Virus record (IMG/VR): IMGVR_UViG_3300032093_000017
Reading direction: 5' to 3' (one strand)
Length of the DNA: 64,000 nt
DNA from: a virus
Below, one piece after another: positions 12,030-52,260 of this stretch (the first letter of the stretch is position 1; each line of letters starts with the position of its first letter). The position numbers and the translations under genes are program-made. The notes beneath the pieces were generated by a model. It was not told where the DNA came from, made no database searches, and saw only the letters and a program-made list of their open reading frames with translations.

Positions 12030-13031
12030 ATGAGTTTTGTTGATTCCAAATACATCGGGCTGGTATCTTCCCGACTGGATAAGTTTGCTAAGAAAAAAGA
12101 AGGTCTTTATAACTTTCGGTGCCCTTACTGCGGTGACAGTCAAAGGACAAAGAGTAAGGCAAGAGGATATATTTACCAATTAAAGAACGACCATAATTTT
12201 AAGTGTCATAATTGTGGAACTTCTAGAACATTTACAAACTTTCTCAAAGACTTAGATGTTGTTCTTTACGACCAGTATGTGATGGAAAGATATAAAGAAG
12301 GAACTACTGGAAAAAGGTCTCAAACAAAGAACCCAGAGTTTAAGTTTGAGAAACCAAATTTTTCAAAAAAGGCATTTGACCTGCCTACCATCGCAGAACT
12401 AAATAAAGAACATTCTGCAAGAAAATACTTAGAAGATAGAAAAATACCTAACAACTATCTGTGTGAATTGTATTTCTGTGAAAAGTTTAAAGAATGGACC
12501 AACACGCAAAAACACACCTTTGATAAAGTAGAACGGGACGAACCACGAATTATTATTCCTTTAATCAATAAAGGAGAAATATTTGGATTTCAAGGTCGTA
12601 GTTTAAATAAAAAATCAAAGGTGAAATACATTACAATTATTCTTGATGATACACATCCAAAAATTTACAATTTGGATAAACCAGACTACGACAAAATTGT
12701 TTATGTTGTTGAAGGACCAATTGATAGTATGTTTTTGGATAATTCAATTGCTATGGTTGGTGCAGACATCGATAAAATGTTTTTCATATCCAACTTTGCA
12801 ACAGAATTTGTAATGGTGTATGACAATGAAAAACGAAATAAACAGATCGTAGATAGAATGGAAAAAGCAATACAAATGCGATTTCCAATCGTCATTTGGC
12901 CGAATGACTTGAAAGAAAAGGATATTAATGATATGATCCTTTCAGGAATTGATGCCCCAAAAATCATCAAGGAAAATACTTATATGGGATTAGAAGCAAA
13001 AGCAAAACTTATTGGATGGAAACGAGTATGA
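12030..13031 (+). CDS. gp61: DNA primase gp61
   Basis: CPYCGD..CHNC Zn finger; VEGPIDS and YDNE TOPRIM motifs; KDIND. Confidence 0.95.
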   Translation: MSFVDSKYIGLVSSRLDKFAKKKEGLYNFRCPYCGDSQRTKSKARGYIYQLKNDHNFKCHNCGTSRTFTNFLKDLDVVLYDQYVMERYKEGTTGKRSQTKNPEFKFEKPNFSKKAFDLPTIAELNKEHSARKYLEDRKIPNNYLCELYFCEKFKEWTNTQKHTFDKVERDEPRIIIPLINKGEIFGFQGRSLNKKSKVKYITIILDDTHPKIYNLDKPDYDKIVYVVEGPIDSMFLDNSIAMVGADIDKMFFISNFATEFVMVYDNEKRNKQIVDRMEKAIQMRFPIVIWPNDLKEKDINDMILSGIDAPKIIKENTYMGLEAKAKLIGWKRV

Positions 13032-14722
13032 GCAACGGTACAAAGGTAATTAAGAGAAGTGGTGATAATGAACCTCTTGATCTCAATAAACTTCACTTAA
13101 TGGTTGAGGAGGCATGTAGGGACCTCTCTGGTGTTTCTGCATCACAGGTCGAGATGCAATCTGGTATTCAATTCTATGATGGAATTACAACAGCAGAAAT
13201 TCAGGAAATTTTAATTCGTTCTGCATCTGATTTGATTGATTTGGAAAATCCAAATTATCAATTTGTTGCAGCAAGACTACTTCTGTTTTCGGTGAGAAAA
13301 TCTTTGTATGGAAGAGTTCAAGATCATCCTACTTTTGTAGATCATATTAAGAAATGTGTTCTTGCTGGAGTATATGATCCAGAAATCTTGACTAACTATA
13401 CAGAGGAAGAACTTAATCGTCTTGGTGGTTATATTAATCATAACCGTGATTATCTATTTACTTATGCTGGTCTTCGTCAAGTAGTTGATAAGTATCTTGT
13501 TCAAGACCGTAGTGCTGGGCAAGTATATGAAACTCCACAGTTCATGTATATGATGATTTCTGCGACTATTTTTGCTAGATATCCAAAAGAAACTAGAATT
13601 TCTTATGTCAAACGATACTACGACGCAATCTCCAAACACAAAATCAACATTCCCACACCTATCATGGCAGGAGTGCGAACTCCACTTCGACAATTTGCTA
13701 GCTGTGTTCTTGTTGATGTTGATGACACCCTCGATAGCATCTTTAGTTCTGATATGGCTATCGGCAGATATGTTGCACAAAGGGCGGGAATCGGCATCAA
13801 CGCAGGTAGAATCCGTGGCATCAACGCTAAAATCAGAGGTGGAGAAGTTCAGCACACAGGTGTTGTCCCATTCCTCAAAAAGTTTGAAGCAACTGTCAGA
13901 TGCTGCACTCAAAATGGCATCCGTGGTGGATCAGCAACTGTCCACTTCCCAATCTGGCACCAAGAGATCGAAGACATCCTAGTATTAAAAAATAACAAAG
14001 GAACCGAAGACAACCGTGTTCGTAAGTTAGACTACTCTATCCAAATCTCTAAACTGTTCTATGAACGATTCATCAAGAATGAAGAGGTCTCTCTCTTCTC
14101 CCCACACGCAGTTCCTGGTTTGTATGATGCTTTTGGAACTGATGCTTTTGACGAGTTATATGTACGTTACGAACGAGATGAGTCTATTCCTAGAAAGACT
14201 ATCGGAGCTCAAGAACTCTTTTTGGACCTCCTGAAAGAACGTGCTGAAACTGGTCGTATTTACATTATGAATATCGACCACTGCAACTCTCACTCATCCT
14301 TTATGGATAAGGTTGAGATGAGTAATCTTTGTGTTTCTGGTGATACTAAAATCAAAATTAGATATCCAGAACCCATTTATAATGATATTGGTGAAGTATC
14401 TGATTGGAGAGTTTGTGAGATTGAAATTCATATTGAAGATTTAGAAATTTACCTTTCTGATAGGATAGCTATAATTGCATGTCTTTGTGATGATGTTCCT
14501 CAAATAGAAGTTCTTTCTTATAATATAGAAACTAATCAACAAGAATGGGCACCTATTACAGCATTTGCCGAAACATCACCAAAAGCAAAGGTAATGAAAA
14601 TTACTGATGAAGAAAGTGGTAAGAGTATTGTAGTTACACCAGAGCATCAAGTATTCACAAAAAATCGTGGATATGTAGTGGCAAAAGACCTAACCGAAAC
14701 CGATGAGTTGGTAATTAACTAA
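13028..14722 (+). CDS. nrdA: Class Ia ribonucleotide reductase alpha, N-terminal fragment fused to split-intein N half (intein N 14330-14719)
   Basis: ATP cone, PTP, FASCVL, ...MSNL, then CVSGDT (block A) and TPEH (block B), then stop. Confidence 0.95.
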   Translation: MSNGTKVIKRSGDNEPLDLNKLHLMVEEACRDLSGVSASQVEMQSGIQFYDGITTAEIQEILIRSASDLIDLENPNYQFVAARLLLFSVRKSLYGRVQDHPTFVDHIKKCVLAGVYDPEILTNYTEEELNRLGGYINHNRDYLFTYAGLRQVVDKYLVQDRSAGQVYETPQFMYMMISATIFARYPKETRISYVKRYYDAISKHKINIPTPIMAGVRTPLRQFASCVLVDVDDTLDSIFSSDMAIGRYVAQRAGIGINAGRIRGINAKIRGGEVQHTGVVPFLKKFEATVRCCTQNGIRGGSATVHFPIWHQEIEDILVLKNNKGTEDNRVRKLDYSIQISKLFYERFIKNEEVSLFSPHAVPGLYDAFGTDAFDELYVRYERDESIPRKTIGAQELFLDLLKERAETGRIYIMNIDHCNSHSSFMDKVEMSNLCVSGDTKIKIRYPEPIYNDIGEVSDWRVCEIEIHIEDLEIYLSDRIAIIACLCDDVPQIEVLSYNIETNQQEWAPITAFAETSPKAKVMKITDEESGKSIVVTPEHQVFTKNRGYVVAKDLTETDELVIN

Positions 14723-14726
14723 TAGG

Positions 14727-14780
14727 ATAGGGAGTGTAATTTCTACATTTTATAAATAGTTATGAGATTACACTTCCTAT
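14727..14780 (+). promoter_or_regulatory. 17-bp hairpin with late promoter TATAAATA (14751-14758) in the loop, abutting the endonuclease ATG
   Basis: atagggagtgtaatttc / gagattacacttcctat, two G-U pairs. Confidence 0.8.
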
Positions 14781-14781
14781 T

Positions 14782-15453
14782 ATGAAAACCTATATTGTAT
14801 ATAAAATTACGAATAAGAAAAACGGAAAGTCTTATATAGGAAAATCTGAATATCCATTAGAGCATCGTTGGAATCGTCATTTATCATCAGCAAGAAATGG
14901 TTCTAAATTTAGATTTCATTCTGCTATTAGAAAATATGGGGAAGATTGTTGGGACTTATCTGTGATTGAAACTTACCAAACTGAAGATGAAAACTTTATT
15001 AATGAAAAGGAAACTCACTTCATTAAACTCTTTGAAAGTGATACTAAAGGTTATAATGCTACTTCGGGGGGAACTGGTGGATGGATGCTTCCAAGATGCT
15101 CACAGGAGGTTCAGGAAGAGTGGAGAAATGGTATTTCCATAAGAACTATTGGTTACAATAATCCAAACTATTCTGGATACACTGATGAGGAACTCATAGA
15201 AGTAGGTGTAAAGTTTGCTAAAAAATATGGATTTATTGGTGGAAGGAAAAGAATAGTTGAGTTTGCTCTTAGTGAATTAAATATTAAGTTTCCAAAACAT
15301 TTCTCCAAAAATAGATTTGACGGAAACCATCAAAACTTTTATAAATCTATTGAAGAACAAACTGGATTGGTGTATAATCCTTATTATAGAGACGAAACTC
15401 AAAGAAAACTTGCTAAACAACTTTTAGAACAAAATAGGAGAAAAAAATGCTAA
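14782..15453 (+). mobile_element. Free-standing GIY-YIG homing endonuclease between the nrdA halves
   Basis: IVYKITN...YIGKS, R..H, E, GYNAT.GG. Confidence 0.9.
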
Positions 15454-16541
15454 AGATTGAATATCTTGAAGAAGAAATCCCAGTTTATGATATTACAGTA
15501 GAAGGAACTCATAATTTCTTCGCAAATGATATTCTAGTCCATAATTGCCAGGAAATTACTCTTCCAACAAAACCACTTCAACACATTGATGATCCCAATG
15601 GGGAGATTGCACTTTGTATTCTTTCTGCTGTTAATGTTGGCAAAGTAAAGTCTGATGATGAATTTGAAGATCTTTGTAATCTTTCTGTTCGTGGTTTGGA
15701 AGAATTGATTGATTATCAAAACTATCCTGTAGTTGCTGCAGAGATTGGAACCAAAGCACGTAGATCTTTGGGTGTTGGGTATATTGGTTTGGCACACTAT
15801 CTTGCTAAACTTGGTTTTAATTACGATACTCAAGAAGCTTGGGATGCGGTTCATCAATTGTCTGAATCGTTCCAATATTTCCTTCTAAAAGCATCAAATG
15901 AAGTTGCTAAAGAAAAGGGTGCCTGTGAATATTTTAATCGCACTAAGTATTCGCAAGGTATTCTTCCAATTGACACTTACAAGAAAGATGTGGATGAAGT
16001 TTCTTCTGTTCCTCTTCATCACGATTGGGAATCGTTAAGGCAATCAATCAAAGAGTTTGGTCTCAGGCACTCCACTCTTACAGCACAGATGCCATCTGAA
16101 TCCAGTTCTGTCGTCTCCAATGCCACAAACGGCATCGAACCACCTCGTGGATTTTTATCAATTAAGAAATCTAAAAAAGGTCCTCTCAAACAAATTGTTC
16201 CTCAATATCAACATCTTAAAAACAACTATACGTTGCTTTGGGATATGCCTAGCAATCGTGGTTATATTAATATTGTTGCAGTTATGCAGAAATTCTTCGA
16301 TCAAGCAATTTCTGGAAACTGGTCGTATAATCCAGAAAATTATGCCAATAATGAAGTTCCTGTTAGCGTAATGGCACAAGATATGCTTACTTGTTTTAAA
16401 CTTGGGCATAAGACGGCATATTATCAAAATACATATGACAATAAGACCGACGAAATTAAGGAGGAAAAAACTAATATTGACGATTTGGTTAAAGAACTTT
16501 TAGAGGGGGGGGAAGACGACTGTGAATCCTGTAAAATTTAG
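15447..16541 (+). CDS. nrdA: Split-intein C half (33 aa, 15447-15545) fused to the C-terminal fragment of NrdA
   Basis: VYDITVEGTHNFFANDILVHN|CQEITLP; AQMPSESSS, YY, terminal CESC; RBS aggag at 15436. Confidence 0.95.
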   Translation: MLKIEYLEEEIPVYDITVEGTHNFFANDILVHNCQEITLPTKPLQHIDDPNGEIALCILSAVNVGKVKSDDEFEDLCNLSVRGLEELIDYQNYPVVAAEIGTKARRSLGVGYIGLAHYLAKLGFNYDTQEAWDAVHQLSESFQYFLLKASNEVAKEKGACEYFNRTKYSQGILPIDTYKKDVDEVSSVPLHHDWESLRQSIKEFGLRHSTLTAQMPSESSSVVSNATNGIEPPRGFLSIKKSKKGPLKQIVPQYQHLKNNYTLLWDMPSNRGYINIVAVMQKFFDQAISGNWSYNPENYANNEVPVSVMAQDMLTCFKLGHKTAYYQNTYDNKTDEIKEEKTNIDDLVKELLEGGEDDCESCKI

Positions 16542-17706
16542 AATCACTGCAGAGAAAGAAAAAATGATTCAAGGAATGACCGTATTTAATACTCAAGAGG
16601 TAGATGCCAAAAAGCAACCTATGTTTTTTGGTGCTCCTCTTGGAGTTCAAAGATATGATTCTTATAAGTATCCTGTCTTTGATAAATTAACTCAACAACA
16701 GTTAGGATATTTCTGGAGACCTGAAGAAGTTTCTTTGCAGAAAGATCGTTCGGATTATCAAACTCTTCGTCCAGAACAAAAACATATCTTCACTTCTAAT
16801 TTGAAGTATCAAATTCTTTTGGATTCAGTTCAAGGTCGTGGTCCAGGGATGGCATTTGCACCTTACTGTTCACTTCCAGAATTGGAAGCCTGTATGAAGG
16901 TTTGGGAGTTTATGGAGATGATCCATAGTCGTTCCTATACATACATTATTAAGAATGTTTATTCTGATCCAACAGAAGTTTTTGATTCCATTTTAAATAA
17001 TGAAAAGATTTTAGAAAGAGCATCATCAGTTACTGGTGCTTATGATGACTTTATTAATTCCGCACAACTTTATGGAAACTCAAATCTTTGGGTTCACGCA
17101 CAAGAAGGTGTTGGAACTGCAAAAGAACAAAGATATGAACTAAAAAGAAAACTTTATCGTGCAATTGCAAATGTCAACATTCTCGAAGGTATCAGGTTTT
17201 ATGTCTCGTTCGCTTGCAGCTTTGCGTTTGGTGAACTCAAACTTATGGAAGGATCCGCTAAAATTATCTCTCTCATCGCAAGAGACGAAAATCAGCACCT
17301 TGTTATTACTCAAAACATCCTCAATAAGTGGCGTGAAGGGGATGATCCAGAAATGCAACAAATTGCTAAAGAAGAAGAGGAATGGGTAAGAGGTGCCTTT
17401 GAGAATTGTGTAAATGAGGAAAAGAGGTGGGCAGAGTATCTGTTCAAAGATGGTTCTATGATTGGTCTAAACGATAAACTTCTTTGGAGTTATGTTGAAT
17501 GGGTTGCGAATCGTCGTATGAAAGCAATTGGACTTAAACCACTCTATGATATTTCTGCAAAGAATAATCCACTTCCTTGGACTGAGCATTGGATTTCCTC
17601 TAAGGGACTTCAAGTTGCTCCACAGGAAACGGAAGTAGAATCTTATGTGGTTGGTGGCATTAAGCAGGATATTACAAAAGATTCTTTTAGTGGATTTAAA
17701 CTCTAA
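16522..17706 (+). CDS. nrdB: Ribonucleotide reductase beta subunit
   Basis: FWRPEEV, EMIHSRSY, EGIRFYVSF, RDENQH, APQETE. Confidence 0.96.
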   Translation: MNPVKFRITAEKEKMIQGMTVFNTQEVDAKKQPMFFGAPLGVQRYDSYKYPVFDKLTQQQLGYFWRPEEVSLQKDRSDYQTLRPEQKHIFTSNLKYQILLDSVQGRGPGMAFAPYCSLPELEACMKVWEFMEMIHSRSYTYIIKNVYSDPTEVFDSILNNEKILERASSVTGAYDDFINSAQLYGNSNLWVHAQEGVGTAKEQRYELKRKLYRAIANVNILEGIRFYVSFACSFAFGELKLMEGSAKIISLIARDENQHLVITQNILNKWREGDDPEMQQIAKEEEEWVRGAFENCVNEEKRWAEYLFKDGSMIGLNDKLLWSYVEWVANRRMKAIGLKPLYDISAKNNPLPWTEHWISSKGLQVAPQETEVESYVVGGIKQDITKDSFSGFKL

Positions 17707-17710
17707 AATT

Positions 17711-17762
17711 GTAACAAAAATAACAAAAAAAATTGACTATATAACGTACAAGGGAATATAAT
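17711..17762 (+). promoter_or_regulatory. Sigma70-like promoter (ttgact-N18-tataat) with an imperfect NtcA-like box upstream (GTA-N8-AAC)
   Basis: -35 at 17733-17738, -10 at 17757-17762, box at 17711-17724. Confidence 0.4.
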
Positions 17763-17771
17763 AAGTCCCTA

Positions 17772-17830
17772 ACGTTCATCTGCTATTTGCGAATTGCGAA
17801 TGTAGACGGAAGTAAGCCGACTCGGAACGG
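17772..17830 (+). ncRNA. Glutamine riboswitch aptamer 1 (glnA-motif-like)
   Basis: CGTTCATC-P2 hairpin-GACGGAAGTAAG...GGAACG; P1 cgttc/gaacg. Confidence 0.8.
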
Positions 17831-17831
17831 A

Positions 17832-18002
17832 ACGTTCATCTATGGAAGCACTCATTCTATCTTGCTTACAAGCACAATTAATTGTAGGAAGAGTTCATAA
17901 ACAAGACATTCCTAAACAAGCAAAGAATGATTTAATTTGGGAGATTAAACAAATCTCACCAAAGACGTGTAAAATAGACGCAAAAGCCGACTGAAGGAAC
18001 GC
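17832..18002 (+). ncRNA. Glutamine riboswitch aptamer 2, with P2 loop expanded by an ORF
   Basis: CGTTCATCTAT...ATAGACGCAAAAGCCGACTGAAGGAACG. Confidence 0.7.
17842..17994 (+). CDS. 50-aa peptide embedded in aptamer 2 (MEALILSCLQAQ...TCKIDAKAD)
   Basis: Open ATG-to-TGA frame read by eye; two Cys near the ends. Confidence 0.6.
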   Translation: MEALILSCLQAQLIVGRVHKQDIPKQAKNDLIWEIKQISPKTCKIDAKAD

Positions 18003-18032
18003 TCTTTAACCTAAAAACTAAGGAGAAACCTA

Positions 18033-18197
18033 ATGTCAAAAGTTGTATACCGTGGTGTTGAATATGACACTACAAACCGTCCTAATCAAACATTTAAATG
18101 TGAACCAAGAGTAGAAATTTATCGTGGTGCTATGTTTTATGTTGATGAAAATGGAAACAAACTTTCTATGCAGAAGTCGGGGGAAACAATTAAATGA
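18033..18197 (+). CDS. DUF4278-like small protein (54 aa)
   Basis: RBS aggag; two YRG motifs (VYRGVEY, IYRGAMF). Confidence 0.8.
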   Translation: MSKVVYRGVEYDTTNRPNQTFKCEPRVEIYRGAMFYVDENGNKLSMQKSGETIK

Positions 18198-18286
18198 AAA
18201 AAATTAATGTCCTTCAACTTATTAAAGAACAAAAACAAAAAGAAAATCGTCGTCACCAAGCTAAAATAGTGATGATTAAAAAGTAA
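18194..18286 (+). CDS. 30-aa basic peptide (MKKINVLQLIKEQKQKENRRHQAK...)
   Basis: ATGA overlap; ends just before a terminator. Confidence 0.55.
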   Translation: MKKINVLQLIKEQKQKENRRHQAKIVMIKK

Positions 18287-18290
18287 ATTG

Positions 18291-18321
18291 ATAGGAGGGG
18301 CAATACCCCTCCTATTTTTTT
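18291..18321 (+). terminator. Rho-independent terminator
   Basis: ataggagggg/cccctcctat followed by a T run. Confidence 0.85.
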
Positions 18322-50465: not shown

Positions 50466-50574
50466 GGTTTAGTCCCCGAAAGGGGACTTTTTTATGACTT
50501 GACACCAGAACCAGACCGTAGTATGATAAATAGGTAAACAAATGTTAAGGATTCCTCATAATTCTTAACATTGT

Positions 50575-50690
50575 CAAACACCCGTTAACCGAGACCTATG
50601 GGTGTATAAGAACGTCTCTCATACCCACAATGGAGGGTGTTGTGGGATATACTGTAACCATCCAGTTCCCCCTGGACTTTTACTTACCCT
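50575..50690 (+). ncRNA. PhotoRC-II-like structured psbA leader
   Basis: gagac/gtctc pairing; cccacaa-tggagggtg-ttgtggg hairpin directly 5' of a phage psbA. Confidence 0.65.
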
Positions 50691-50700
50691 TTTAAAACAA

Positions 50701-52260
50701 ATGACTGCTTCAATCGCTTCACGCCGTTCTGGCGAAAATACCTGGGAACAATTTTGTAACTGGGTGACTTCAACCGATAACCGTCTTTATGTCGGGTGGT
50801 TTGGTGTTTTGATGATTCCAACGCTGCTTACTGCTGCTACTTGTTTCATTATCGCATTCATTGGTGCTCCTCCTGTGGACATTGATGGTATTCGTGAACC
50901 CGTTGCTGGTTCTCTAATGTACGGAAACAACATCATCTCTGGTGCCGTTGTTCCTTCGTCCAATGCAATTGGACTGCACTTTTATCCCATCTGGGAAGCT
51001 GCTTCCCTAGATGAGTGGCTTTACAACGGTGGACCTTTCCAACTTGTTGTCTTCCACTTCCTCATCGGCATCTATTGCTATATGGGTCGTGAATGGGAAC
51101 TCTCTTACCGTCTAGGTATGCGTCCTTGGATTATGGTTGCTTACAGTGCTCCTGTTGCTGCTGCGAGTGCAGTTTTCCTGGTCTATCCTTTCGGTCAAGG
51201 TTCTTTCTCTGATGCAATGCCTCTGGGTATTTCTGGTACGTTCAACTATATGCTTGTGTTCCAGGCAGAGCACAACATCCTGATGCACCCCTTCCATATG
51301 CTTGGAGTTGCTGGTGTGTTCGGTGGTTCTCTGTTCAGTGCAATGCACGGTTCTCTGGTTACTTCCTCGCTGGTTCGTGAAACCACTGAGAATGAGTCTC
51401 AGAACTACGGTTATAAGTTCGGCCAAGAAGAAGAGACTTATAACATCGTTGCTGCTCACGGTTATTTCGGTCGTCTTATTTTCCAATATGCGTCCTTTAA
51501 TAACTCCCGTTCACTGCACTTCTTCCTTGCTGCCTGGCCCGTTGTAGGCATCTGGTTCACTGCTCTTGGTGTGAGCACTATGGCTTTTAACCTCAATCGT
51601 CGGGGTCCCGTCCTAGCAATTTGACGGTAAACATCGGGTGAACTGCTGGAAGCCCTCCACAAATGGGTAATCAGCATCCAAGTCCAAAGTACACTTTGGA
51701 AAGGTTCAGAGACTACCTGAGGAGTTCAGTCTCCTTAATAACAGGAATAAGTGCCCGACATCCTAAACGGATGAAGATATAGTCCACTCCTTAAAGATGG
51801 TAAATTTAAGGGTTCAGTGTAACGGTTTCAACTTTAACCAATCTATCGTAGATAGTCAGGGTAAAGTTATTAATACTTGGGCAGATGTGCTCAATCGTGC
51901 AGGACTCGGAATGGAGGTAATGCACGAACGGAACGCTAGATTTGTTGGTGTTCTTGCTTAGGAATAAGCATTAGTAAAATCGGGTTAAACGGGGAAACTC
52001 TCTATGAGACAATCCCGTACCAAGTCAGAAAGGGTTTAAGTTTTCTGAAAGGTCTAACGACTAGGTGGTGAGTCCCAACAATAATCCACCCACGAATGCC
52101 CGACATCCAGAACGGATGAAGAGATAGTCTGAACTTACTAGTGATAGTAAGAAGTAGAGGATAAAGAACCACTACGATAACAAAATTGCACAACTTCCCA
52201 CTTGACCTTGCTGCCGCAGAAGCAACTCCTGTTGCTCTTACTGCACCTGCAATCGGTTGA
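50701..52260 (+). CDS. psbA: Photosystem II D1; exons 50701-51593, 51820-51937 and 52189-52260 (360 aa spliced)
   Basis: Joined exons restore [12 protein letters not shown] and [14 protein letters not shown]. Confidence 0.95.
51594..51819 (+). mobile_element. Group I intron 1 (226 nt, no ORF)
   Basis: 5' exon ends in U with P1 acctc/ggggt U-G pair; R gttcagagacta, S gaagatatagtcc; terminal G. Confidence 0.92.
51938..52188 (+). mobile_element. Group I intron 2 (251 nt, no ORF)
   Basis: P1 gaacgct/ggtgttc; R ctaacgacta, S gaagagatagtct; terminal G. Confidence 0.92.

What the first reader, a model, noticed from the sequence alone, without database searches (positions are those of the whole stretch)
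17772..18002. Tandem glutamine-riboswitch-like RNA with a whole protein-coding gene inside the second aptamer
Seen: two consecutive units share CGTTCATCT...AGACG(G/C)AA...AGCCGACT...GGAACG. In unit 1, P2 is a short hairpin. In unit 2, the P2 strands (tctat at 17839, ataga at 17974) enclose ~130 nt, and an ORF of exactly 50 codons runs through it. Its ATG (17842) lies in the P2 5' strand. Its last codons and stop (ATA GAC GCA AAA GCC GAC TGA) are the aptamer's own conserved 3' nucleotides. Known: glnA-type aptamers bind glutamine, occur in tandem and precede DUF4278/gifB-type genes. Inference: aptamer folding and translation of the embedded ORF are mutually exclusive. This gives a nitrogen-sensing switch in which the regulated gene (or a ribosome-based actuator) sits inside the sensor. 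I know of no characterised example of this layout.
Basis: partly seen in the sequence, partly recalled or inferred. Interest (0 to 1): 0.88.

Follow-up and report, generated by a model that had tools for sequence, protein, structure and literature searches.

The report
Gene nested inside interlocked glutamine riboswitch
A lake cyanophage starts a small operon with a glutamine-sensing RNA built from two interlocked sensor cores, one stem of which closes around a real 50-codon gene, so a ribosome reading that gene and the folded sensor cannot coexist on one RNA; I found no paper describing this layout.

Summary
At 17773-18002 there are two glnA-type (glutamine-I) units. The second unit's P2 strands (17839-43 and 17974-78) enclose 130 nt. 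A 50-codon ORF (17842-17994) starts in the P2 5' strand and ends on conserved core nucleotides.

The ORF is a real gene:
- dN/dS is 0.12.
- A profile search finds 279 clusters.
- AlphaFold gives a confident helical hairpin.

The layout recurs in cyanophages. All 93 split units in viral contigs have the ATG 9-12 nt after CGUUC, and 91 of 93 ORFs stop at the same core nucleotides. P2 shows compensatory changes.

"Tandem" is only partly right, because the two cores are interlocked. Unit 1 has the AGUA half of loop E and unit 2 has the GAA half. Both linchpin pairs form only across units (178/178 and 174/178). The two "P3" octamers pair with each other.

C18002 is both the linchpin partner and the first base of the anti-Shine-Dalgarno that masks the downstream DUF4278 gene, as in gifB.

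My proposal, not yet tested: glutamine folds the sensor, which hides the nested gene's start and frees the downstream gene, while ribosomes on the nested gene unfold the sensor.

This scan has reported the same layout on other genomes. I found no publication describing it.

The parts
17733..17762 (+). Promoter-like site: TTGACT, 18 nt spacer, TATAAT. It places the transcript start a few bases before the sensor.
   Evidence: 11 of 12 consensus matches; sequence confirmed. This is a consensus match only.
17773..17777 (+). Strand a: CGUUC, the 5' strand of the outer P1. It carries the glutamine-contacting C1 and G2 of core A.
   Evidence: Invariant in 169 of 169 loci. Its partner is assigned from cross-unit linchpin and loop-E evidence.
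17779..17806 (+). P2(1): short hairpin of core A (UCUGC / GUAGA, 18-nt loop).
   Evidence: Rfam alignment. All 4 pairs show changes on both sides in the insert-free alignment. In other phages this loop holds a 62-73 codon ORF.
17807..17814 (+). J23(1): CGGAAGUA, with G22 (17808), linchpin base G17809 and the AGUA half of loop E (17811-14).
   Evidence: G17809 pairs with C18002 and not with G17830. Cross-unit Watson-Crick pairing holds in 178 of 178 loci.
17815..17822 (+). Octamer d (AGCCGACU): one strand of the shared long-range helix. It was read before as a mini P3 hairpin.
   Evidence: d5:k4' is G-C in 105 loci, A-U in 61 and G.U in 7, with 5 exceptions. Double changes in S-SRM01 and S-CREM1 fit only the cross-unit duplex.
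17825..17837 (+). Inner P1: GAACG (17825-29) and CGUUC (17833-37) closed by loop GAA. G17830 is the linchpin partner of C17981.
   Evidence: u2 N23: u1 N60 is C:G in 174 of 178 loci. The linker is mostly 3-5 nt across the listed loci, with one of about 21 nt (L100).
17839..17978 (+). P2(2): closing helix UCUAU (17839-43) / AUAGA (17974-78) around a 130-nt loop that is the body of the nested gene.
   Evidence: many compensatory strand pairs. (3 of 4 pairs change on both sides). The loop RNA is unusually structured (z = -3.9).
17842..17994 (+). Nested gene: 50 codons, a two-cysteine helical-hairpin protein of no known family. The tail KIDAKAD is read from the sensor core.
   Evidence: dN/dS is 0.12 and third-position entropy is 0.93 against 0.19 for second position. 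128 close clusters and 279 representative clusters. pLDDT 88.7. No Pfam, NCBIfam or PDB match.
17979..17984 (+). J23(2): CGCAAA, with G22 equivalent G17980 and linchpin base C17981. It lacks AGUA.
17985..17992 (+). Octamer k (AGCCGACU): the second strand of the shared helix. U17992 is also the first base of the stop codon.
17993..18002 (+). J31 GAAG (the GAA half of loop E, which overlaps the stop codon), outer P1 3' strand GAACG (17997-18001) and linchpin base C18002.
   Evidence: The role of the G23-C60 linchpin is taken from PMC6212724.
18002..18025 (+). Expression platform: anti-SD CUCUUU (18002-07) pairs with SD AAGGAG (18020-25).
   Evidence: predicted in all 23 freshwater-class loci. 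SD unpaired probability is 0.01-0.02 and rises to 0.35 when C18002 is withheld. This is modelling only.
18033..18197 (+). DUF4278-like (IF17-like) gene, 54 codons: the downstream regulated gene.
   Evidence: PF14105, 23 bits, E 1.1e-4, below the 25.3 cut-off. (phrog_5049).
18194..18286 (+). 30-codon ORF whose ATG overlaps the DUF4278 stop (ATGA). In some loci a relative directly follows the sensor.
   Evidence: phrog_545, E 0.0014. (L068, L088, L089).
18290..18316 (+). Intrinsic terminator-like hairpin (11 pairs) followed by a T run. It marks the end of the small operon.

Best explanation
The region 17773-18025 is the leader of a short phage operon: promoter, sensor, nested gene, DUF4278 gene, 30-codon ORF, terminator.

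The sensor is one interlocked double glutamine-I aptamer rather than two independent ones.
- Core A uses the first CGUUC (17773-77), P2(1), J23(1) with its AGUA, and then the far-downstream GAAG, GAACG (17997-18001) and C18002.
- Core B uses the local hairpin GAACG/CGUUC (17825-37), P2(2) and J23(2).
- The two AGCCGACU octamers (17815-22 and 17985-92) pair with each other as a shared helix.
- P2(2) closes around a real 50-codon gene.

Shown here: the anatomy, the coding status of the gene and the cross-unit pairings.

Inferred:
- Glutamine stabilises the whole fold. That buries the nested gene's initiation region (17825-17850 lies in the inner P1 and P2(2)).
- The G17809-C18002 linchpin pulls the first base out of the CUCUUU:AAGGAG helix. 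This exposes the ribosome-binding site of the DUF4278 gene, as proposed for gifB.
- Ribosomes translating the nested gene run through J23(2), the shared helix and the loop-E GAA, and they terminate 3 nt before the outer P1 strand. While the gene is being read, neither core can fold.
- The result would be one sensor with opposite outputs for the gene inside it and the gene after it, reset by ribosome traffic.
For: Anatomy and coordinates.

Glutamine-I identity:
- Unit 1 scores 31.3 bits.
- Natural insert-free copies of the window's unit-2 core score 35.4-37.2 bits against a gathering score of 35.

Layout conserved in cultured phages (P-SSM2, P-SSM4, S-SRM01, DSL-LC02, DSL-LC03) and in viral contigs:
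- ATG position fixed in 93 of 93 split units and stop position in 91 of 93.
- P2 closure of at least 5 bp in 97% of true partners against 14% of mismatched partners.

Coding status:
- dN/dS is 0.12 in the loop interior.
- Synonymous change is halved where the ORF overlaps the core (pS 0.60 falls to 0.27).
- The family has 128 and 279 clusters.
- AlphaFold pLDDT is 88.7.

Interlocking:
- Unit 1 has AGUA but no GAA, and unit 2 the reverse.
- The unit-1 linchpin base pairs with the base after unit 2's P1 in 178 of 178 loci (C:G 124, G:C 54). With its own unit it is mismatched in 54 loci.
- The second linchpin is C:G across units in 174 of 178 loci.
- d5:k4' switches between G-C and A-U (105 and 61 loci).
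- S-SRM01 and S-CREM1 carry double changes that fit only the cross duplex.
- The formal pair count favours the nested over the tandem structure at every discriminating position.

Expression platform:
- The SD is masked in all classes, with compensatory changes in marine loci.
- Withholding C18002 raises SD accessibility from 0.02 to 0.35.
- The published gifB logic is the same (PMC6212724).
Against: - No experiment shows glutamine binding, translation of the ORF or any regulation.
- The four P1 strands are invariant in 169 of 169 loci. The outer/inner P1 assignment therefore rests on the linchpins, loop E and the shared helix alone.
- Independent evolutionary events are few. On an ORF-interior tree the linchpin state changes only 3 times. 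All changes are concordant, but the sign test is not significant.
- Nearest-neighbour energies do not favour the nested over the tandem fold (-53.7 against -56.8 kcal/mol). Such models ignore tertiary and ligand contacts.
- Modelled accessibility of the ORF's AUG changes little with transcript length, so repression of the nested gene by the fold is inference.
- Unit 1 alone aligns to RF01739 as a self-contained aptamer.
- In marine loci the terminating ribosome would itself unmask the downstream SD. That fits a coupling model as well as a reciprocal one.
Confidence: 0.55

Rival explanations
1. Two ordinary, independently folding tandem glutamine-I aptamers (a pseudo-cooperative doublet). The second simply tolerates a gene in its P2 loop.
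For: Unit 1 aligns end to end with RF01739 (31.3 bits). Insert-free unit 2 copies pass the gathering score on their own. The tandem-constrained fold is slightly lower in energy than the nested one. Glutamine doublets are described as common (PMC9481103).
Against: Within a unit the loop-E halves are incomplete. Each own-unit linchpin is mismatched in 54 of 178 loci, while cross-unit pairs hold in 178 and 174 of 178. The P3 octamers covary with each other. Two isolates carry changes that break local P3 hairpins but keep the cross duplex.
Confidence: 0.12
2. Passenger genes. P2 loops are simply insertion-tolerant sites in a crowded phage genome. The nested ORFs are translated regardless of the sensor, and the overlap of start and stop with the core reflects compaction and shared ancestry rather than regulation.
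For: All four combinations occur: ORF in P2(2) only in 81 loci, in P2(1) only in 37, in both in 26, in neither in 22. The downstream platform is the same with or without an ORF. The two ORF families are probably homologous, which suits spread by duplication. Modelled AUG accessibility is not strongly structure-dependent.
Against: There is no spacer between the P2 strand and the ATG in 93 of 93 split units, although P2 length and sequence vary. Stops fall inside conserved core nucleotides in both positions: UGA/UAA in J31, and UAA in the AGUAA of J23(1). The loop RNA is unusually structured, which brings the strands together (z = -3.9). Physical exclusion between ribosome and fold holds whatever the origin.
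Confidence: 0.2
3. Ribosome-as-actuator coupling. Glutamine controls initiation on the nested ORF. The ribosome that terminates on the UGA inside the sensor then opens the masked Shine-Dalgarno, so the downstream gene is switched on through translation of the nested gene rather than by the linchpin.
For: In marine loci the anti-SD is the J31 segment that holds the stop codon, with compensatory changes (CUGAAG:CUUCAG, CUAAAG:CUUUAG). In the window the stop lies 8 nt before the anti-SD.
Against: Loci without any ORF in P2(2) keep the same platform, so the ORF is not needed for control of the downstream gene. In the window's class a terminating ribosome should reach only about the first base of the anti-SD helix. 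That estimate is an inference from usual ribosome footprints.
Confidence: 0.18
4. The 130-nt insert is only an RNA domain (an extended P2 rod) and the open frame is not translated.
For: The insert folds much better than shuffles (z = -3.9). No Shine-Dalgarno precedes the ATG.
Against: dN/dS is 0.12 with third-position variation far above second-position. Fifteen ORF lengths are all in frame. The predicted protein fold is confident. There are invariant residues, including two cysteines.
Confidence: 0.03

Closest known systems
Glutamine-I riboswitch (glnA RNA, Rfam RF01739), e.g. the Synechocystis gifB (IF17) leader (PMC6212724; structure 5DDP as described in PMC6698751)
   Same: Both have the CGUUC/GAACG P1 with the ligand-contacting pairs, a P2 hairpin, J23 with G22, an AGUA/GAA loop E and a G23-C60-type linchpin. 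In both, the linchpin's 3' partner and the following bases mask the ribosome-binding site of a DUF4278 gene. A translational ON switch is expected for that gene.
   Different: Here two cores are interlocked. Loop E, both linchpins and P3 are formed between units, and P2 of one core encloses a protein-coding gene. Standard Rfam scanning at the gathering score reports nothing here.
Tandem glutamine riboswitch doublets, listed as pseudo-cooperative systems (PMC9481103; PMC2864571)
   Same: Two glutamine-type units lie head to tail in one leader.
   Different: Those are described as separate aptamers. In this RNA neither unit is complete on its own. No nested gene is mentioned in those papers.
Group I introns with homing-endonuclease ORFs in peripheral loops (phage T4-type introns)
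   Same: A protein gene sits inside a loop of a functional folded RNA, so translation and RNA folding can interfere. This comparison is from my own knowledge and was not tested here.
   Different: The host RNA there is a ribozyme, not a ligand sensor. The ORF encodes a mobility enzyme, and its start and stop are not built from the RNA's ligand-binding core.
Leader-peptide attenuation (trp, his and similar operons)
   Same: The position of a ribosome on a short ORF in a leader decides which RNA fold forms.
   Different: The nested ORF here is a conserved folded protein under purifying selection. It is not a codon-content sensor, and the metabolite is read by the RNA.
Cooperative tandem glycine riboswitch
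   Same: Two aptamers for one ligand make tertiary contacts and act as one unit. This comparison is from my own knowledge.
   Different: The glycine aptamers are each complete and dock side by side. Here the strands are exchanged between the cores.

Membership tests
Glutamine-I riboswitch (RF01739) | P1 helix CGUUC/GAACG carrying the ligand-contacting C1-G59 and G2-C58 pairs | tested here: met
   Both strands are present twice (17773-77, 17825-29, 17833-37, 17997-18001). They are invariant in 169 of 169 loci. Which strand pairs with which cannot be read from P1 itself.
Glutamine-I riboswitch (RF01739) | P2 helix next to P1, supported by covariation | tested here: met
   In P2(1), 4 of 4 pairs change on both sides, and in P2(2), 3 of 4 do. 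More than 40 strand combinations close the ORF-bearing P2.
Glutamine-I riboswitch (RF01739) | Loop E (AGUA opposite GAA) within one aptamer | tested here: not met
   Unit 1 has AGUA (17811-14) but CG in place of GAAG. Unit 2 has GAAG (17993-96) but CGCAAA in place of CGGAAGUA. The motif is complete only across units.
Glutamine-I riboswitch (RF01739) | Watson-Crick linchpin between J23 position 23 and the base just 3' of the same aptamer's P1 (G23-C60) | tested here: not met
   In the window, G17809 faces G17830 in its own unit and C18002 across units. Across 178 loci, own-unit pairing fails in 54 and cross-unit pairing holds in 178.
Glutamine-I riboswitch (RF01739) | Score at or above Rfam's gathering threshold (35 bits) | tested here: not met
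   Unit 1 scores 31.3 bits and unit 2 gives no hit with its insert. Natural insert-free copies with the same unit-2 core score 35.4-37.2 bits.
Glutamine-I riboswitch (RF01739) | Selective binding of L-glutamine | not testable with these tools
   All bases named as ligand contacts in PMC6698751 (C1, G2, G22, C58, G59 equivalents) are present in both cores.
Glutamine-I riboswitch (RF01739) | Location upstream of a DUF4278 / IF17-like gene with a maskable ribosome-binding site | tested here: met
   The protein from 18033-18197 matches PF14105 at 23 bits, E 1.1e-4, just under the 25.3 cut-off. An anti-SD:SD helix is predicted.
Independent tandem (pseudo-cooperative) riboswitch doublet | Each aptamer is complete and folds on its own | tested here: not met
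   The tandem model breaks both linchpins in 4 of 19 insert-free loci and gains no compensatory pair. The nested model has compensatory changes at the linchpin and in the shared helix.
Glutamine-II riboswitch (RF01704, Downstream-peptide) | Match to the pseudoknotted model | tested here: not met
   There is no RF01704 match with E up to 10 in 17700-18060. Relatives give only sub-threshold overlaps of 25-26 bits.
Leader-peptide attenuator | Short non-conserved ORF enriched in codons of the sensed amino acid | tested here: not met
   The protein is conserved (11 invariant residues; dN/dS 0.12). It has 5 Gln in 50 residues, with no run.

The most novel reading that the evidence does not exclude
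A ribosome-gated metabolite sensor. One glutamine-dependent RNA fold gives opposite outputs for a gene that lies inside it (start region buried when folded) and a gene that follows it (ribosome-binding site freed when folded). Ribosomes reading the inner gene erase the sensor. The leader therefore behaves as a two-state switch set jointly by glutamine and by translation. It is built from two strand-swapped aptamer cores, an architecture not described for any riboswitch class.
Probability: 0.35. Interest if true: 0.92.

Novelty: new variant of a known kind. Interest (0 to 1): 0.85.

Why it matters
Riboswitches are taught as untranslated leaders in which an aptamer and an expression platform precede the gene. 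Here the sensor is wrapped around a gene, and its ligand-binding core doubles as the gene's last codons and stop. Translation and metabolite sensing must therefore compete on one molecule.

The strand-swapped double core is also a new way to couple two ligand sites.

The layout is common in marine and freshwater cyanophages. In my sample, 144 of 166 resolvable double sensors carry at least one nested gene, although the search patterns bias that sample. Standard Rfam scans miss it, so phage control of host nitrogen metabolism (IF17-like inhibitors of glutamine synthetase) is probably under-annotated.

The finding also supplies a natural system for studying ribosome-riboswitch interplay, and a family of unstudied two-cysteine small proteins tied to nitrogen sensing.

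Tried and rejected
- Rfam on unit 2 as it stands gives no hit. I could not hand an insert-deleted sequence to Infernal, so I used natural insert-free relatives instead.
- A search for rare variants in the four P1 strands, to decide the pairing directly, found none in 169 loci.
- A tree-based test of independence for the linchpin and d5:k4' covariation found only 2-3 and 1-5 independent pairs, so it was underpowered.
- Constrained-fold energies for nested against tandem were not decisive.
- Modelling of ORF start-codon accessibility along the growing transcript showed no clear trend.
- Foldseek of the ORF model against PDB returned only generic helical hairpins with E above 3.
- Pfam, PHROGs and NCBIfam gave nothing for the ORF beyond a weak phrog_504 hit.
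- The window's own genome is not held.
- Ames and Breaker 2011 and Ren et al. 2015 are not in the library. Their content is cited only through PMC6698751, PMC5393176 and PMC6212724.
- The genome-contig scan for the unit-1 3' half gave 12 hits. Only 4 carry the whole element, and all 4 are short MAG/SAG contigs or a viral contig. I therefore rejected a cellular origin for this form.
- I rejected a CCG/CGG local hairpin in unit 1, because the variants ACAA and CCAA break it.

Full report
**Context.** The window is from a T4-like cyanophage. It holds ribonucleotide reductase genes at 12953-17706, a PhotoRC-II RNA and two group I introns. The closest isolates at this locus are the freshwater Synechococcus phages DSL-LC02, DSL-LC03 and S-SRM01.

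The finding lies between nrdB and a 461-codon gene, inside a compact unit:
- a promoter-like site TTGACT-18-TATAAT (17733-62);
- the RNA element (17773-18025);
- a DUF4278-like gene (18033-18197);
- an overlapping 30-codon ORF (18194-18286);
- a strong terminator-like hairpin (18290-18316).

**Observation.** Unit 1 matches the glutamine-I model RF01739 at 31.3 bits, below the gathering score of 35, with a local E-value of 4.8e-5. Unit 2 gives no match as it stands, and a gathering-threshold scan of the window reports nothing here.

Nature supplies it, however. Viral contigs L046, L051 and L010 carry the same unit-2 core around a short hairpin, and they score 35.4, 35.7 and 37.2 bits.

**The nested ORF is widespread and precisely placed.**
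- P-SSM2, P-SSM4, S-SRM01, DSL-LC02 and DSL-LC03 show the same split unit.
It gave 125 copies. For the 120 with an upstream CGTTC within 400 nt, the distance to it is 17-48 nt in 27 copies and 143-200 nt in 93 copies, with none in between.
- In all 93 long cases the first ATG lies 9-12 nt after the C of CGUUC.
- In 91 of 93 the frame stays open for 49-66 codons (15 lengths) and ends on the UGA or UAA of GACU(G/A)A.
- The closing P2 helix has more than 40 strand combinations. True partners pair over at least 5 bp in 97% of cases, against 14% for strands taken from other loci.

**It is a real gene.**
- Among 19 close relatives of the window's ORF, dN/dS is 0.12 in the loop interior.
- Entropy is 0.93 at third codon positions against 0.19 at second positions.
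- Synonymous change drops from 0.60 to 0.27 over the last nine codons, where protein and sensor share the sequence.
- The protein has 128 close clusters, mostly of exactly 50 residues, and 279 representative clusters in a profile search. Almost all are small proteins of 43-116 residues, with one 556-residue, seven-stretch hit as the exception.
- Eleven residues are invariant, including C8 and C43.
- AlphaFold predicts a confident helical hairpin (pLDDT 88.7; helices 2-20 and 25-38). The tail encoded by the sensor core is less ordered.
- No known family or solved fold matches.

**"Tandem" needs revision.** Earlier notes of this scan on other genomes suggested interlocked cores, and I tested that lead here.

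Published structures show that glutamine contacts C1-G59 and the G22 triple on G2-C58. P3 is extended by an AGUA/GAA loop E. A G23-C60 linchpin caps P1, with C60 and the following bases masking the gifB ribosome-binding site.

In the phage element, unit 1 always has AGUA but CG instead of GAAG. Unit 2 has GAAG but CGCAAA instead of CGGAAGUA.

Across 178 loci:
- The unit-1 linchpin base pairs with the base after unit 2's P1 in every case (C:G 124, G:C 54). It is mismatched with its own unit in 54.
- The unit-2 linchpin base pairs with the base after unit 1's P1 in 174. It is mismatched with its own unit in 54.

The two AGCCGACU octamers, previously readable as 2-bp P3 hairpins, can form an antiparallel 8-mer. 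A scan aimed at variants with A at d5 found U at k4' in 61 of 65. With G at d5, k4' is C in 105 of 113.

Two isolates give discriminating double changes. S-SRM01 has d1 C with k8 G, a change that also destroys its UGA and lengthens its ORF by five codons. S-CREM1 has d8 G with k1 C. Both break the local hairpins and keep the cross duplex.

A formal count on 19 insert-free loci gives compensatory changes at each discriminating position under the nested structure, and only disruptions under the tandem one.

Caveats:
- The P1 strands never vary.
- On an ORF-interior tree the linchpin state changes only three times, so independent events are few.
- Nearest-neighbour energies do not separate the models.

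**Census.** Among 166 resolvable double sensors, 81 have an ORF in P2(2) only, 37 in P2(1) only, 26 in both and 22 in neither. The sample is biased by my search patterns.

P2(1) ORFs (62-73 codons) also start in the P2 5' strand. Most end IGRK-UAA, with the stop inside the AGUAA of loop E.

The two ORF sets align cysteine to cysteine in a profile comparison (probability 79%, E 1.7e-5). One P2(1)-type protein body sits in a P2(2) loop and there ends in DAKAD (L098). The tail is therefore dictated by the RNA core and the body by the protein family.

A scan of one genome per prokaryotic species found the full element only on four short MAG/SAG or viral contigs.

**Expression platform.** In the window, C18002 is both the cross-unit linchpin partner and the first base of CUCUUU (18002-07), which pairs with the Shine-Dalgarno AAGGAG (18020-25). 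All 23 freshwater-class loci show this.

In marine loci the anti-SD is the J31 segment that holds the stop codon, with compensatory changes.

Modelling gives an unpaired probability of 0.01-0.02 for the SD. It rises to 0.35 when C18002 is withheld. This mirrors the mechanism proposed for gifB.

**Mechanism.**
- Shown: anatomy, coding status and cross-unit pairings.
- Follows from geometry: a ribosome on 17842-17994 occupies P2(2), J23(2), the shared helix, the loop-E GAA and, at termination, the outer P1 strand. Neither core can fold while the gene is read.
- Inferred: glutamine stabilises the fold. This buries the nested gene's initiation region in the inner P1 and P2(2), and it frees the DUF4278 ribosome-binding site through the linchpin, giving opposite outputs.
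- Not excluded: a coupling model, in which the terminating ribosome opens the SD, and a passenger model.

**Literature.** The papers I could read were the discovery paper (PMC2864571), the gifB study (PMC6212724), the glutamine-II structure (PMC6698751), the tandem riboswitch survey (PMC9481103), the S-CREM1 genome paper (PMC9964418), and all hits for "glutamine riboswitch" since 2022. None mentions interlocked cores or a gene inside the aptamer. This scan has reported the same layout on other genomes.

Noticed in passing
window 12953-16541 (+): The ribonucleotide reductase large subunit is a fractured gene. The N-part ends in an intein N-terminal splicing domain (12953-14722). A free-standing GIY-YIG endonuclease ORF follows (14740-15453). 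The C-part begins with the intein C-terminal domain...VHN|C (15438-16541). It resembles the split-intein 'fractured genes' that I recall from metagenomes.
   Followed up: partly
window 50566-50660 and 51584-52151 (+): A PhotoRC-II RNA (81.7 bits) lies here, followed by two group I introns only 116 nt apart (77.9 and 67.2 bits). They are presumably in psbA.
   Followed up: no
L005:115-300 (P-SSM4) and L057:1071-1268: A manA RNA (184 and 175 bits) lies next to the glutamine element: about 90 nt upstream in P-SSM4 and about 225 nt downstream in L057. The two structured RNAs may share a transcript.
   Followed up: no
L003:640-807 (S-SRM01): The k8 U-to-G change that keeps the cross-unit helix paired also removes the UGA stop, so the nested ORF runs 5 codons further to a UAA. 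This is a visible trade-off between RNA and protein constraints.
   Followed up: yes
L098:1690-1887 (-): A protein body of the P2(1) type (...HEPVHWTIKC...YFATKVEEE.C) sits in a P2(2) loop and carries the DAKAD tail instead of IGRK. This shows exchange of ORFs between the two loops.
   Followed up: partly
window 18194-18286 (+); L068, L088, L089: A 30-codon ORF overlaps the DUF4278 stop (ATGA). In some loci a relative (MNTLQLIKE...) directly follows the sensor in place of DUF4278.
   Followed up: no
L021, L036, L103, L117 (downstream of the sensor): Some marine loci carry an extra conserved hairpin module of about 40 nt (GGAACACGGAUCAC...AAAGGUG) between the sensor and the masked Shine-Dalgarno.
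   Followed up: no
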